Positions 11,838 through 18,451 of a stretch of 32,000 nucleotides of DNA are shown in pieces. Position numbers and translations under genes: made by a program. A model generated the notes under the pieces. That model saw only the letters and a program-made list of their open reading frames with translations, made no database searches and was not told where the DNA came from. The DNA is from an uncultured archaeon (GTDB taxonomy: Archaea > Asgardarchaeota > Lokiarchaeia > Sigyniarchaeales > Promethearchaeaceae), in assembly GCA_964426185.1 (NCBI GenBank), contig CAYRPF010000001.1, positions 62,328-94,327 of the forward strand. The letters run 5' to 3'. The stretch's first letter is position 1. The number at the start of each line of letters is the position of its first letter.

Positions 11838-12128
11838 TTAGTTCGGCGAAATTACAATTTCCATAGACGATACATTTGAACTCTTTCCATCATCGTTTGT
11901 GAGGTGTTCCGTGGAAATGCGAATGTCCTTGTATTTAGCAGAGGGGAAAAACTTATTTATCAAAATTTCTGCAACATCTACCGCATGAGAAATTGCACGT
12001 CCACGGGCTTTAATTGTGCATTCTGTTCCTCGATTTAAAATTACCATTGCTGCCATAACATAATTCATAGTTGGCCGTTTTCCAATGAAAACCGAATTGT
12101 CCGATGTTTTATCATTATTATTTTGCAT
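11838..12128 (-). CDS. albA: DNA/RNA-binding protein Alba
   Basis: VFIGKRPTMNYV, IKARGRAISHAVDVAE, NVSSMEIVI. Start set at MQNNN (12128). Confidence 0.95.
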   Translation of the reverse strand: MQNNNDKTSDNSVFIGKRPTMNYVMAAMVILNRGTECTIKARGRAISHAVDVAEILINKFFPSAKYKDIRISTEHLTNDDGKSSNVSSMEIVISPN

Positions 12129-12286
12129 AGTCTTGTCACTGTAGTTGTTCAACGTAGAAACGATGTTATCGAATTTTGAAAACATCCAATTAAGAACCAA
12201 TAATTAAATTGGATGTCTATCACAAAGGTAGAAAGCGAGATAAAAAAGGTTTACTGGTGCGAATCATCATTAACAATTTGATGAAG

Positions 12287-13066
12287 TTAATAATAGGGAG
12301 ATGTGTCATCATTTATAATTTGTTGAAGTTTTGCGTAAACTTGGTCTACTCCTTCATTAAATTTAGCTGAAACGGGGAGTAATTCTGAAGTTGCGCCAAA
12401 ATTAATGAATGCTTTTCCCAGTGCAATTGTATATTCTCGGAAGATGCCATGTTCCAGCATTTCAATTGCATCCATTAACGCCAGATCGTCTTCCATCCAA
12501 TTCAAGATTCTCTCTAACTTTTCTGGACTTAGGAGGTCTTTTTTGGTCAATAAGTTTAATTGGGGAAGATTTGCAAATCGGAACTGAACCGAAGCAGATA
12601 ATAATAGGGTAGAAATCACTCCATTTGGTGTTCCGCACAATAAGCTATCATAGCAAAATATAATAGAACGTTGAATAGAACCAAATCCAAGAGCGTTGGC
12701 AATCATTGGGCCTGTATTTCGAAAGGAAAAAAGTTCCATCTGACCCGGAGTATCCACTAAAATAATGTCGGGATCGTTATACTGGTTGATTTCATATTTT
12801 AAATCTTCAACATAATCCACCATTCTGTCTGTTGCTTCAATCATTGCTCCGTTTGGGCCCAAACCCGTTTCTTCAATAACTTGGTTAACCGTAATATAAT
12901 CTTGAATGTCTATATTGGGCTGATACGGAAGTTTTTGAACCGCTGGATCCAGATTAATGGTAATTAGAGAGATTTCTGGATTGTATGTCCCAATATAGTC
13001 TTGGAGGGCTTTCGTTAAGGTTGTTTTTCCACTTCCTGCCGGACCAATTATGTAAAATATATGCAT
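12287..13066 (-). CDS. GPN-loop GTPase
   Basis: GPAGSGKTT, INLDPA, GLGPNGA, DTPGQMELF, TKKD, PVSA. Confidence 0.93.
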   Translation of the reverse strand: MHIFYIIGPAGSGKTTLTKALQDYIGTYNPEISLITINLDPAVQKLPYQPNIDIQDYITVNQVIEETGLGPNGAMIEATDRMVDYVEDLKYEINQYNDPDIILVDTPGQMELFSFRNTGPMIANALGFGSIQRSIIFCYDSLLCGTPNGVISTLLLSASVQFRFANLPQLNLLTKKDLLSPEKLERILNWMEDDLALMDAIEMLEHGIFREYTIALGKAFINFGATSELLPVSAKFNEGVDQVYAKLQQIINDDTSPYY

Positions 13067-15181: not shown

Positions 15182-15384
15182 AATGATTTAGAAAAAAAAA
15201 CCTAATTCGTTCACAAATTGTAGCTTTTAATAAGGGAAAAATTCCGAATATTTTTAGGAAAATGATAACCTATTTAAACGAGGAAATAAGAAACTCTATG
15301 CAAATTTATTTCATCGAGATAGATATATAGATAATCATTTTTTAGACGAAAAATGTGCAATAATTCAAGAATGGGGTAGATGGT

Positions 15385-16812
15385 ATGAAGACAATTTATG
15401 CTCGCTTTGGTTTGGCGGAATATGAGAAATATCATCCTTTAACTAAAGATATTATTATTAAAACTTTTGGCGCCCCTGATAAAGAAATTAAACACGAGCA
15501 ATATTCAGTTCAAATGATATATGAAGATGAAGGTTTGCAATTCTATCATCTCGAGACTAATAAAGATTCTATTTCTGATAAAACTCAGCCCCCTGCAATT
15601 ATTACTTGTGGTTTTTCTATTCCTTTTGAAGGAAAAACTGAAGAAGGAATTATCCTAAATAAAAGCACCATGCGAGATGTAATTCGAATTTTTGGAGAAG
15701 AAACATGGTTAACAACCGATCAATCTCCATATTTTTGGATCCAAGAATCTGGGCTTTCATTTTATGTTAAGAAGGGAGATCTTGCAGAAGAATTTCCTTT
15801 TCAAAAAGATAAACAACTTGATAAAAAAATCATTCGAATTACCGTACCGTTAGTGTATCGAGAAGAAGAAGTTGCAATAAATGAAGAAGGTCAAATCATA
15901 CGAACTATCGATGAATATTGTATTGATGGTACCTTGCATGATCCAATAATCGACGAGGAACACGCAGAAGAAGTTTGCAGCAAATGTGGAATCATTTTGC
16001 GGGATCGAATGATCTCAATGGAATATAGTGGGGAAAGGGCATTTTCCAAAGCAGAACGTGAACGAAGACAAACTCACGGCAGTCCAGTTAATCCTTTAAT
16101 TCCCGATCTTCAAATGGCTACTATGATTGACAAGCATGCATCAATGCCTGAAAATTTGCGAAAAGCCGTTAAATGGGACAGTCGATATTCTTGGAAACAG
16201 AGAAATATGATTCAAGCAACTTCTGAGATAAAACGCATAGGGGAATTGCTTAACCTTCCTCAGCACGTGAAAATTTATGCCATTAAACTGTATCGTCAAG
16301 CTTTTTCCTTGGGCTTGTTGAAAGGACGAAGTATTAGGGCAATGGTCGCGGCTTCTATATACTATGCTTGTGGGGCTGAAAAAATACCTCGTACTTTACA
16401 AAATATCGTTAAGGTTTCCGATTCTACGTTTCATCAAATTACTAAATGCTATCAGTCTTTAATAAAAGAGTTAAATTTACCGAGTCCGTCAATTAGCCCA
16501 AAGAATTTATTGTCATCTTATGTTTCTCTTCTTCATCTTCCCCATAATGTAGAGATAAATGCTGGACGAATATTAGATCGTTATGAAAAGATTTATTCAC
16601 TATCTGGGAAAGATCCCAAAGGTCTCGTTGCAGCAGCGCTTTATATTGCCAGTCAATTAAATAAAATAAAGATTTCTCAGACAAAAATCTCTCGAACAGT
16701 TGGTATTACTGAGGTGACCCTTAGAAACAGATTACGTGAAATGCAAAAGTTTGTAAAGAGTAAGAAACGCAAGAAAACTTCAGAAAAAGTTTCAAAAAAA
16801 GGGGATAAATAA
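15385..16812 (+). CDS. tfb: Transcription initiation factor IIB (TFB) with ~170-aa N-terminal extra domain
   Basis: Zn ribbon ..VCSKCGIIL, B-reader-like ERAFS, cyclin repeats KGRSIRAMVAASIYYAC..PRTL and GKDPKGLVAAALYIA..ITEVTLRNR. Confidence 0.9.
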   Translation: MKTIYARFGLAEYEKYHPLTKDIIIKTFGAPDKEIKHEQYSVQMIYEDEGLQFYHLETNKDSISDKTQPPAIITCGFSIPFEGKTEEGIILNKSTMRDVIRIFGEETWLTTDQSPYFWIQESGLSFYVKKGDLAEEFPFQKDKQLDKKIIRITVPLVYREEEVAINEEGQIIRTIDEYCIDGTLHDPIIDEEHAEEVCSKCGIILRDRMISMEYSGERAFSKAERERRQTHGSPVNPLIPDLQMATMIDKHASMPENLRKAVKWDSRYSWKQRNMIQATSEIKRIGELLNLPQHVKIYAIKLYRQAFSLGLLKGRSIRAMVAASIYYACGAEKIPRTLQNIVKVSDSTFHQITKCYQSLIKELNLPSPSISPKNLLSSYVSLLHLPHNVEINAGRILDRYEKIYSLSGKDPKGLVAAALYIASQLNKIKISQTKISRTVGITEVTLRNRLREMQKFVKSKKRKKTSEKVSKKGDK

Positions 16813-17182: not shown

Positions 17183-18451
17183 TCACCACATTTTTTGACG
17201 ATAACCACATTTTGGACATTCAATCTCAGCACCTTGCGGTGGGAACGAATTTAAAATATTTTGACAGCTAACACAATTCAAATCTACTAATTTATATGTT
17301 TCTGGCAGAAATTTGCGATTAATCAGGTGCTTTTGAAAATCTATAACCAAATTGTGAATAAGAGTTGATACTAAATCTTTATTTTTACTAGCCACATACA
17401 AGGCGAAGAATCCATTTTTGATTTGAGGTATTGCCAGAATTTGTAAAGATTCATTGTCTTTGGTTATTGAACCCAAATAGAACCACATAGGAGCGGGATT
17501 ATCGTTTTTTATGATACTCATAAAGTGATATATCTCTAAAATTTCTTCAAAAATTTTCATGATATCATGTTCACATTTGAGATCGGGGCAACCTACGCCT
17601 TGCATTCTTTTGAAAAACTCAGGATTTCGCATTATCGACTTTATTAAGTTAATGTCTCCTTTTAAAGGTGTAATTTCAGGAATATTGAAATCGACATTGA
17701 TTTCTTCCATTCTGATCAATCGCATCGTAAGATTATTATTTCTAAATTGGAAAAATCCTCGAATGGAAAATTTACGATCATGAATGTCAGAAACGTATAA
17801 TCTAAGTGTTTTTGCCGATTTTGCAGGGAGATCGTTAATACCAATGATGATTTCACCGGAGTTATCTTCATACGAATATTCATTAAATTGAGGTCTAATG
17901 GTTAATCCCTCATCATATTTTAAACGGAGTTTTCCTTCAGTAGCAGGAAAATCGGAATTATTTTGTATGCCAATTAAGATAACCGTTCTAATCCCAATTA
18001 TTTTTACATTCAATTCAACTGTGATTAAATCTTTTTGATCAATTTCCCGATGTTTAGATGTCACAATTTCCATAGGTTGAGTCTTTTTTTCTGCCATTTC
18101 CGCCATTAAAGATTTTAAATTTTCAACCCTAGGAGTTTCTTTTTGAGTTATACCTAATACTTCAAATTGTTCTAAATCCCAATCCAGTATATCTTCTAAC
18201 GTCAGATTTTTTTTTTGGATTTCATCCATTGAAAATTGTAGATAAGTTCTACCGTCTGGATAATGCTTAATTTTACCAAATACCTTGTTATCGTTGTATA
18301 AACGGATTATCACTTCTCGAACTTGAAAATCGTCTAGTGAAAATTCAGATTTAATTTTATTTATATCTAGTTTATCATTATTGAGCATTTTTTTTACAAT
18401 GAAAGTTGTAATTTTTTGTAAATCGAAATTTTTGTTAATTTGGCCGCTCAA
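17183..18451 (-). CDS. Hypothetical protein: wHTH/PCI-like N-terminus, adaptin/COP appendage-like domains, C-terminal Zn ribbon
   Basis: 422-aa ORF (TTG start). Beta-rich IQNNSDFP...DLPAKSAKT region, alpha/beta region ending LYVASKNKDLVSTLIHNL, then CVSC...CPKC. Confidence 0.6.
   Translation of the reverse strand: MSGQINKNFDLQKITTFIVKKMLNNDKLDINKIKSEFSLDDFQVREVIIRLYNDNKVFGKIKHYPDGRTYLQFSMDEIQKKNLTLEDILDWDLEQFEVLGITQKETPRVENLKSLMAEMAEKKTQPMEIVTSKHREIDQKDLITVELNVKIIGIRTVILIGIQNNSDFPATEGKLRLKYDEGLTIRPQFNEYSYEDNSGEIIIGINDLPAKSAKTLRLYVSDIHDRKFSIRGFFQFRNNNLTMRLIRMEEINVDFNIPEITPLKGDINLIKSIMRNPEFFKRMQGVGCPDLKCEHDIMKIFEEILEIYHFMSIIKNDNPAPMWFYLGSITKDNESLQILAIPQIKNGFFALYVASKNKDLVSTLIHNLVIDFQKHLINRKFLPETYKLVDLNCVSCQNILNSFPPQGAEIECPKCGYRQKMW

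What the first reader, a model, noticed from the sequence alone, without database searches (positions are those of the whole stretch)
15385..15950. TFB fused to an extra N-terminal tandem-repeat domain and carrying an atypical Zn ribbon
Seen: about 170 aa precede the Zn ribbon in frame, with two similar units (LTKDIIIKTFGAPD...MIYEDEGLQFY and STMRDVIRIFGEET...WIQESGLSFY). The first Zn knuckle reads CIDGTLH instead of CxxC/H. Known: archaeal TFB is about 300 aa and begins near the Zn ribbon. Inference: the T-x-x-D-[VI]-x-x-x-FG pattern resembles BLIP-like/SmpA-OmlA/DUF4309 protein-interaction folds, so this could be an alternative TFB regulated through a built-in sensor or partner-binding module.
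Basis: partly seen in the sequence, partly recalled or inferred. Interest (0 to 1): 0.72.

Follow-up and report, generated by a model that had tools for sequence, protein, structure and literature searches.

The report
TFB with captured bacterial-type N-terminal domain
One family of Asgard archaea, including both cultured species, has a general transcription factor B fused at its front to a 160-residue domain otherwise found in secreted bacterial proteins, next to a remodelled zinc ribbon; this architecture did not turn up in the papers I could search and can be tested at the bench.

Summary
Window 15385-16812 (+) is one 475-codon ORF. It has a 160-residue N-terminal domain, a conserved linker, a zinc ribbon whose first knuckle reads C-x5-H instead of CxxC, a B-reader/B-linker and two cyclin repeats.

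The fusion is not an assembly or annotation artefact:
- At least 25 full-length homologues share it (56-79% identity).
- It occurs once per genome in 9 of 400 Asgard genomes, all in one family. These include Promethearchaeum syntrophicum MK-D1 and Ca. Lokiarchaeum ossiferum.
- It always lies in the same gene neighbourhood.
- The N-domain is under purifying selection (dN/dS about 0.2), and a Shine-Dalgarno motif precedes its start codon.

The N-domain folds confidently (pLDDT 90) into a tandem alpha/beta fold. The best structural matches are YfeY (Z 11.2) and YjgB/DUF4309 (Z 10.4), with BamE matching one half. It is clearly homologous (hhalign E 2e-47) to an uncurated family of about 180-residue, mostly signal-peptide-bearing bacterial proteins.

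A complex prediction (0.75, best control 0.01) puts the linker and first zinc knuckle against the domain, so the two probably form one rigid head. What the head does (partner binding or gating of polymerase docking) is inferred, not shown.

I rate it a new variant of a known kind, of moderate interest.

The parts
15385..16812 (+). Complete ORF of the long TFB paralogue (475 aa plus stop)
   Evidence: Pfam TFIIB repeats E 3.5e-36; 25 full-length homologues
15373..15377 (+). Shine-Dalgarno-like GGGGT, 7 nt before the ATG; the orthologues have GGAGG at the same place
15245..15310 (+). Intergenic block conserved in three genomes of the genus. It holds a T-run and a TATA-like TTTAAA (15274-15279) after an A-rich BRE-like stretch. 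Putative promoter and 5' UTR (inferred).
15385..15864 (+). N-terminal domain, residues 1-160: tandem alpha/beta units, YfeY/DUF4309/BamE-like fold
   Evidence: AF2 pLDDT 89.8, pTM 0.86; VIA Z 11.2 and 10.4; hhalign E 2e-47 to a bacterial family; dN/dS about 0.21
15433..15552 (+). Structural unit 1 (about residues 17-56: helix 21-28, strands 33-37, 41-46, 51-56)
15553..15594 (+). Inter-unit loop (about residues 57-70). Low pLDDT. Some homologues carry inserts of up to about 95 residues here.
15658..15771 (+). Structural unit 2 (about residues 92-129: helix 96-103, strands 116-121, 124-129)
15865..15918 (+). Conserved linker (residues 161-178, motif N-E-x-G...I-R). Residues 165-176 are predicted to pack as a strand on N-domain residues 107-114.
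   Evidence: pLDDT 80-89 in the full-length model
15919..16002 (+). Zinc ribbon, residues 179-206. Ligand candidates are C179, H185, C198 and C201. G182 replaces the canonical second Cys.
   Evidence: strands 187-190, 195-198, 204-206; Pfam Zn_Ribbon_TF only 13.6 bits against a cut-off of 29
16003..16194 (+). B-reader/B-linker region, residues 207-270, including a stretch around K-W-D-S-R-Y that is nearly invariant
   Evidence: aligns to human TFIIB residues 27-290
16195..16764 (+). Two cyclin-like repeats (residues 271-460) with the C-terminal HTH motif T-E-V-T-L-R-N-R
   Evidence: 1ais_B E 3.2e-34

Best explanation
This is a genuine, translated TFB paralogue specific to Promethearchaeaceae. 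It arose when a duplicate of a short CPxC-type TFB acquired, at its N-terminus, a domain of a family otherwise found in bacteria and mostly secreted there (YfeY/DUF4309/BamE-like tandem alpha/beta fold). At the same time the first zinc knuckle changed from CxxC to C-x5-H. The core keeps everything a TFB needs: B-reader, B-linker, two cyclin repeats and the BRE-reading HTH. I therefore expect it to bind TBP-DNA and recruit RNA polymerase. The N-domain is not a loose appendage. The conserved linker strand and the first knuckle are predicted to pack against it, giving one rigid head that must sit at the polymerase dock when the ribbon engages. My committed reading is that this head is an adaptor surface. 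It would contact a polymerase-proximal or regulatory partner, or be displaced from its own linker by one. Either way it would tune how this one paralogue, out of ten in the genome, recruits polymerase. Shown here: the gene, its architecture, conservation, fold class, bacterial kinship and restricted distribution. Predicted: the domain-linker-knuckle packing and zinc binding. Inferred: the adaptor or gating function.
For: The ORF and its domains are established. 25 full-length homologues cover 96-99% of the query. The N-domain was found in 9 of 400 Asgard genomes, all in one family (8 of 13 other genomes plus this one). There is one copy per genome; eight lie in an open frame of 456-510 aa and the ninth (261 aa) is cut by the end of its contig. 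The named genomes include MK-D1 and L. ossiferum. The flanking genes are the same in five further loci that span the gene (two more genomes of that family are cut by contig ends). dN/dS of the N-domain is 0.21 against congeners. A GGAGG motif lies before the N-domain start codon in the orthologues. By synteny, the MK-D1 orthologue is DSAG12_00098, annotated TFIIB, at RPKM 257, similar to its neighbours and to other TFBs (PMC7015854 Suppl. Table 3). Fold: pLDDT 89.8; YfeY Z 11.2 with 134 residues aligned and YjgB Z 10.4. Bacterial kinship: 330 HMM hits, hhalign probability 100% and E 2e-47, and 115 of 149 homologues have a hydrophobic N-terminus. The zinc ligand candidates are invariant. Complex prediction of the N-domain against residues 161-215 gave ipSAE 0.75 with best control 0.01. 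That mark was reached by 58 of 80 solved complexes and 2 of 110 mismatched pairs. The runs agree in at least 94% of contacts and the partner pLDDT is at least 75. The core aligns to P. woesei TFB and human TFIIB with the HTH conserved. The long clade is one branch (SH-aLRT 99), sister to short TFBs that include the genome's own C30 paralogue.
Against: There is no protein-level evidence. The MK-D1 RNA figure is per gene and does not show that the 5' part is translated. The N-domain evolves about four times faster than the core (dN 0.28 against 0.07). The long TFB was not found in three genera of the family, one of them represented by a 91%-complete genome. One genome (G011) holds three duplicates without the N-domain, so the core can exist without it. 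The packing prediction concerns two covalently joined neighbours and used my own alignments, so the calibration holds only roughly. No partner is identified. The full-length model has pTM 0.44, so nothing can be said about contacts with the cyclin core.
Confidence: 0.55

Rival explanations
1. The N-domain is only a structural cap. It stabilises a zinc ribbon that lost its second cysteine and has no sensing or partner-binding role.
For: The predicted interface includes knuckle residues 178-182. G182 replaces the canonical Cys and is invariant. Several invariant N-domain residues (S41, W108, T110, F139, P155) lie in that interface.
Against: The duplicates without the N-domain keep a degenerate knuckle and still persist. 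W108 and T110 are also conserved in the bacterial relatives, which have no TFB linker. Other conserved positions (T20, T85, E86, Y116, W118, R151) lie outside the predicted interface.
Confidence: 0.2
2. The protein is a decoy or repressor. It occupies TBP-DNA, but its ribbon is masked by the N-domain, so it blocks initiation instead of supporting it.
For: The first knuckle is atypical and predicted to be buried against the domain. Pfam's zinc-ribbon model scores below its cut-off.
Against: The B-reader/B-linker region, which only matters inside the polymerase cleft, is the most conserved part of the protein. It has the lowest dN (0.06).
Confidence: 0.1
3. The N-domain is a small-molecule or glycan sensor carried over from its extracytoplasmic bacterial relatives. 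It would couple a metabolite signal directly to initiation.
For: Its relatives are mostly secreted. In Bacillota, DUF4309 is fused to GH3 hexosaminidases. The domain has many conserved aromatic residues.
Against: No ligand is known for any member of the fold group. The bacterial family is also fused to ankyrin, PDZ and Ig-like modules, which fits protein binding better.
Confidence: 0.1
4. The fusion is an artefact: a missed stop, a chimeric join, or translation starting at the internal GTG at 15853.
For: None beyond the unusual length.
Against: The same fusion is seen in three closed genomes and many MAGs. The N-domain is under purifying selection. Residue 157 is not conserved as a start codon and has no SD motif upstream. 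A conserved SD motif precedes codon 1.
Confidence: 0.02

Closest known systems
Archaeal TFB / eukaryotic TFIIB (e.g. P. woesei TFB core 1AIS, human TFIIB)
   Same: It has two cyclin repeats, a C-terminal HTH, a B-reader/B-linker and an N-terminal ribbon with four ligand candidates. Human TFIIB also uses a Cys3His ribbon (C-x2-H; my own knowledge).
   Different: 178 residues precede the ribbon. The first knuckle is C-x5-H, with Gly at the canonical second-Cys position. The linker and knuckle are predicted to pack on the extra domain.
Alternative TFB paralogues (Sulfolobus TFB2/TFB3, haloarchaeal Tfb families)
   Same: It is one of several TFB paralogues in a genome (ten here). This is the usual archaeal route to regulation at the level of a general factor (PMC6101594, PMC2121645).
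   Different: To my knowledge, those paralogues differ by truncation or sequence divergence, not by gaining a folded N-terminal domain.
YfeY (2QZB), YjgB/DUF4309 (4YGT), DUF7738, BamE, BLIP
   Same: The same tandem alpha/beta fold class (Z 11.2, 10.4; BamE matches one half, Z 5.3). There are weak Pfam hits to DUF4309 and DUF7738.
   Different: There is no significant sequence match to any solved chain. Pfam scores are below the cut-offs. Those proteins are extracytoplasmic and bacterial, whereas this domain is cytoplasmic and fused to a transcription factor.
Uncurated bacterial family of about 180-residue signal-peptide or lipoprotein proteins (e.g. WP_265392532.1 of Leptospira kanakyensis)
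   Same: Clear homology over 146 columns (hhalign E 2e-47), with shared motifs such as H-x-x-Y-S, G-L-S-F-Y-Y and P-F-x-G-x-T.
   Different: The bacterial members are stand-alone and secreted, or fused to ankyrin, PDZ, Ig-like or Zn-ribbon-TM modules. None carries TFIIB repeats.
Brf1, Rrn7/TAF1B (eukaryotic TFIIB-like factors)
   Same: They are TFIIB-family factors specialised by added domains.
   Different: Their additions are C-terminal (my own knowledge). Here the addition is N-terminal, next to the polymerase-docking ribbon.

Membership tests
TFB/TFIIB | Two cyclin-like TFIIB repeats | tested here: met
   PF00382 E 3.5e-36, two stretches; 1ais_B E 3.2e-34
TFB/TFIIB | N-terminal zinc ribbon with four Cys/His ligands | tested here: inconclusive
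   C179-x5-H185...C198-x2-C201 are invariant and three strands are modelled. However, PF08271 scores only 13.6 bits against a cut-off of 29, the spacing is non-canonical, and zinc binding has not been measured.
TFB/TFIIB | B-reader and B-linker between ribbon and core | tested here: met
   Aligns to human TFIIB 27-290 and yeast Sua7 26-313; this is the most conserved region
TFB/TFIIB | BRE-recognising HTH at the end of the second repeat | tested here: met
   T-E-V-T-L-R-N-R aligns with T-E-V-T-V-R-N-R of P. woesei TFB
TFB/TFIIB | Supports promoter-dependent initiation with TBP and RNAP | not testable with these tools
   Needs in vitro transcription
DUF4309 (PF14172) | Score above the Pfam gathering threshold | tested here: not met
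   Only 5 of 21 members match, best E 5.7e-4, and the window protein does not match. The fold match to 4YGT is Z 10.4.
DUF7738 (PF24880) | Score above the Pfam gathering threshold | tested here: not met
   19.3 bits against a cut-off of 24.6
BLIP/BamE-like fold class | Tandem duplication of a helix-plus-antiparallel-sheet unit | tested here: met
   The model shows two such units. Full-length matches are YfeY and YjgB, and BamE and OsmE match one half. This rests on a predicted structure only.

The most novel reading that the evidence does not exclude
The N-domain keeps a peptide-binding edge (strand 107-111, with W108 and T110 also conserved in the bacterial relatives) that is occupied in cis by the TFB's own linker. 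A cellular or partner-derived peptide or protein would compete for this edge and release or re-orient the zinc ribbon. Polymerase recruitment by this paralogue would then be switched directly by a signal. That would make it a one-component, signal-gated general transcription factor, built from a domain captured from bacteria, in the closest cultured relatives of eukaryotes.
Probability: 0.15. Interest if true: 0.8.

Novelty: new variant of a known kind. Interest (0 to 1): 0.58.

Why it matters
TFB/TFIIB is the factor that docks RNA polymerase onto promoters, and its ribbon normally sits at the very N-terminus. A folded domain clamped onto that ribbon would lie at the polymerase dock. From there it could control recruitment or link it to other factors, which would be a way of regulating a general factor that, as far as I know, has not been described in archaea. 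The domain's relatives are bacterial and mostly secreted, so this is also a clear case of a bacterial-type module recruited into the core information machinery of an Asgard lineage. The gene is present and transcribed in MK-D1 and present in L. ossiferum, so the question can be tested at the bench. Two limits apply: the fusion is restricted to four genera of one family, and its function is still unknown.

Tried and rejected
- Sequence-level repeat: hhalign of the two halves gave only 13 columns, so I dropped any claim of a sequence repeat.
- Solved structures by sequence: a profile search with the N-domain found nothing meaningful (best E 0.54).
- TBP-like fold: Foldseek listed TBP chains only at E 0.23-0.34 and TM about 0.22. 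Rejected.
- Eukaryotic PHAF1: the Atlas gave TM 0.69. This is structure-only and I did not take it as kinship.
- Empty-site comparison: the neighbourhood is not syntenic in the genera that lack the gene, so no pre-fusion locus could be shown.
- Stand-alone copies: I looked for separate N-domain genes in the own genome and across the phylum and found none. The short hits P0121, P0162 and P0175 look like fragments.
- Variant extras: Pfam scans of the extra N-terminal extension of P0008 and of the inserts of P0019 and P0023 found nothing.
- Literature: five searches found no description of this fusion. Subscription-only papers are not covered.
- Model geometry: model coordinates are not exposed, so zinc-ligand distances could not be measured.

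Full report
**1. What is in the sequence**

Window 15385-16812 (+) is a single 475-codon ORF. Pfam finds two TFIIB cyclin repeats (E 3.5e-36). It gives only a sub-threshold match to the TFIIB zinc ribbon (13.6 bits against a cut-off of 29, residues 188-211) and a weak DUF7738 hit at residues 93-143.

- 178 residues precede the first zinc ligand candidate.
- The first knuckle is C-I-D-G-T-L-H (residues 179-185) and the second is C198-x2-C201.
- The in-frame GTG at 15853 encodes V157.
- At 34% GC the chance of 178 open codons is about 1.5e-6.

**2. The fusion is real and conserved**

A search of 5.8 billion proteins returned about 28 proteins of 416-576 aa that cover 82-99% of the query at 56-79% identity. 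They are followed by ordinary TFBs of about 300 aa that cover only the C-terminal 55-64%.

In the alignment of 25 long forms the N-terminal region is conserved throughout. Across a 400-genome sample of the phylum, the N-domain profile matches 9 genomes:
- All nine are in one family (8 of 13 other genomes plus this one).
- Each has exactly one copy.
- Eight copies lie in an open frame of 456-510 aa. The ninth (261 aa) is cut by the end of its contig.

A tenth genome has the orthologue truncated at a contig start. Named records include Promethearchaeum syntrophicum MK-D1 (NZ_CP042905.2) and Ca. Lokiarchaeum ossiferum Loki-B35 (CP104013.1). NCBI labels the closest homologue Ca. Harpocratesius sp.. 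NCBI places Harpocratesius and Promethearchaeum in Promethearchaeaceae.

The neighbourhood is the same in five further loci that span the gene (Pfam): Alba, GPN-loop GTPase, homocitrate/isopropylmalate-synthase-like gene, long TFB, then LSm and a 422-aa protein on the other strand.

Other points against an artefact or an internal start:
- Nei-Gojobori dN/dS of the N-domain against two congeners is 0.21, with dN 0.28-0.36. For the cyclin core dN is 0.07-0.10 and synonymous sites are saturated.
- The orthologues have GGAGG 8-10 nt before the N-domain start codon, and the window has GGGGT 7 nt before its ATG.
- Residue 157 is variable and has no SD motif upstream.

In the published MK-D1 expression table, the gene order Alba / COG1100 GTPase / isopropylmalate synthase / TFIIB / Sm-like identifies DSAG12_00098 as the orthologue. 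This assignment is by synteny. Its RPKM is 257, similar to its neighbours (256, 258, 177) and to two other TFBs (367, 305) (PMC7015854, Suppl. Table 3).

**3. The N-terminal domain**

With a 21-sequence alignment, AlphaFold2 gives pLDDT 89.8 and pTM 0.86. It shows two similar units: helix 21-28 with strands 33-56, and helix 96-103 with strands 116-129. A low-confidence loop (residues 57-70) joins them.

Structural matches:
- An exhaustive structural alignment against 48,161 PDB representatives ranks YfeY (2QZB, Z 11.2, 134 residues, rmsd 3.0) and YjgB/DUF4309 (4YGT, Z 10.4) first.
- Next come the N-terminal domains of two SCP proteins (Z 8.6 and 7.7).
- BamE and OsmE match one half (Z 5.3 and 4.1).
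- Foldseek agrees.
- The Atlas searches return bacterial DUF7738, DUF4309 and BamE-like clusters.

At the sequence level, 5 of 21 members touch DUF4309 and 4 touch DUF7738, all below the Pfam cut-offs. No solved chain matches.

An exhaustive HMM search of 1.84 billion representatives finds 330 proteins (156 at E below 1e-10). Only one full-length representative carries the TFB architecture, and a few short hits with the TFB-type N-domain look like fragments of it. The others are mostly proteins of about 180 residues in which the domain starts near residue 30-40. 115 of 149 have a hydrophobic N-terminus and 20 have a lipobox-like motif. One is a Leptospira protein. Others are fused to ankyrin repeats, PDZ, Ig-like domains, or a zinc ribbon plus a transmembrane segment.

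A profile-profile comparison of the TFB domain with 59 of these proteins gives probability 100%, E 2e-47 over 146 columns. That bacterial family is itself almost uncovered by Pfam. No second copy exists in the own genome, and none was found elsewhere in the phylum sample. The simplest history is that an ancestor of part of Promethearchaeaceae captured a bacterial-type domain. The donor is unresolved.

**4. The zinc ribbon and the linker**

C179, G182, H185, C198 and C201 are invariant in 21 homologues. Three of them have C-x6-H.

A gapless comparison with the genome's closest short paralogue (contig C30, knuckle C-P-E-C) places G182 at the canonical second Cys and H185 three residues further on. 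The full-length model shows the three ribbon strands, and the pLDDT of residues 161-200 is 70-89.

Between the domain and the ribbon lies a conserved N-E-x-G...I-R motif. I tested the N-domain against residues 161-215 in a controlled complex prediction:
- ipSAE was 0.75 and the best control 0.01.
- That mark was reached by 58 of 80 solved complexes and 2 of 110 mismatched pairs.
- The runs agree in at least 94% of contacts, and the partner pLDDT is at least 75.
- The calibration holds only roughly here, because I used my own alignments and the two chains are covalent neighbours in the real protein.

The predicted interface joins residues 165-176 and 178-182 to N-domain residues 37, 40-41, 43, 54, 73-74, 107-114, 117, 136-139, 153 and 155. 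Several of these are invariant. The prediction supports a rigid domain-linker-knuckle head but does not prove it.

**5. The TFB core and its origin**

The core aligns to P. woesei TFB (E 3.2e-34), with the HTH motif preserved, and to human and yeast TFIIB from the ribbon onward. The B-reader/B-linker is the most conserved part.

The genome holds ten TFB loci. In a maximum-likelihood tree of 64 cores the long forms sit on one branch (SH-aLRT 99, stem length 0.98). Their sisters are short CPxC TFBs, including the own C30 paralogue.

A few short proteins (P0030, P0031, P0035, P0047, P0056) fall in or beside the long clade. They have degenerate knuckles based on His. One genome (G011) holds the long form plus three such short copies. 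They are most simply later duplicates that lost the domain. Their branches are long, so their placement is uncertain.

Three genera of the family show only the short C30-type gene. One of these is represented by a 91%-complete genome.

**6. Mechanism**

Shown here: the architecture, conservation, fold class, bacterial kinship and restricted distribution. Predicted: the packing of linker and knuckle on the domain, and zinc binding.

Inferred: the ribbon binds the polymerase dock (established for TFB/TFIIB), so the head must sit there. It would act as an adaptor or gate for recruitment by this paralogue.

Rivals:
- a purely structural cap for a weakened ribbon;
- a decoy that blocks promoters, which is disfavoured by the strongly conserved B-reader;
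- a ligand sensor.

**7. Novelty**

Five literature searches found no description of this architecture. The MK-D1 table simply calls the gene TFIIB.

It is a new variant of a known kind. The family is known, but the domain combination and the remodelled knuckle are not. The scan's own notes hold only another first-reader note on the same stretch.

Noticed in passing
window 15245-15310: An intergenic block of about 65 nt is nearly identical in three genomes of the genus. It has a T-run, an A-rich stretch and TTTAAA. It is probably the terminator of the upstream gene plus the BRE/TATA of the TFB gene, which implies a 5' UTR of about 80 nt.
   Followed up: partly
window 11838-13066 (-): An Alba-family gene and a GPN-loop GTPase (PF03029) lie two genes upstream, in synteny conserved across the family. 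Eukaryotic GPN GTPases are RNA polymerase assembly factors (my own knowledge).
   Followed up: no
window 17183-18451 (-): A 422-aa protein with no Pfam family and a C-terminal CxxC...CxxC. It keeps its syntenic position next to LSm and the TFB but diverges quickly (28-66% identity across genera).
   Followed up: no
G011 (L059 and contigs C27, C107): One genome of the family holds three extra short paralogues of the long-TFB clade. L059, the only copy I read, lacks the N-domain and has lost the first-knuckle Cys; the open frames of the other two (361 and 368 aa) are too short to hold the N-domain.
   Followed up: partly
P0008; P0019, P0023, P0028: Some homologues add an 88-residue extension before the N-domain (P0008). 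Others carry an insert of about 95 residues in the inter-unit loop. Neither matches a Pfam family.
   Followed up: partly
G000 contigs C11, C127, C26 and C1:24667-25671: Five of the ten TFB paralogues share a C-C-x-[NS]-P first knuckle and form their own divergent group. The copy on C1 is interrupted by a run of N.
   Followed up: no
P0177, P0133, P0145 (bacterial relatives): The bacterial relatives of the N-domain occur in several other architectures: a zinc ribbon, a transmembrane segment and then the domain, or the domain followed by a weak TIR/SEFIR-like region. This suggests a reusable sensor or adaptor module.
   Followed up: partly
window 28178-28258 (-): The only Rfam match in the window at gathering threshold is a tRNA gene.
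   Followed up: no
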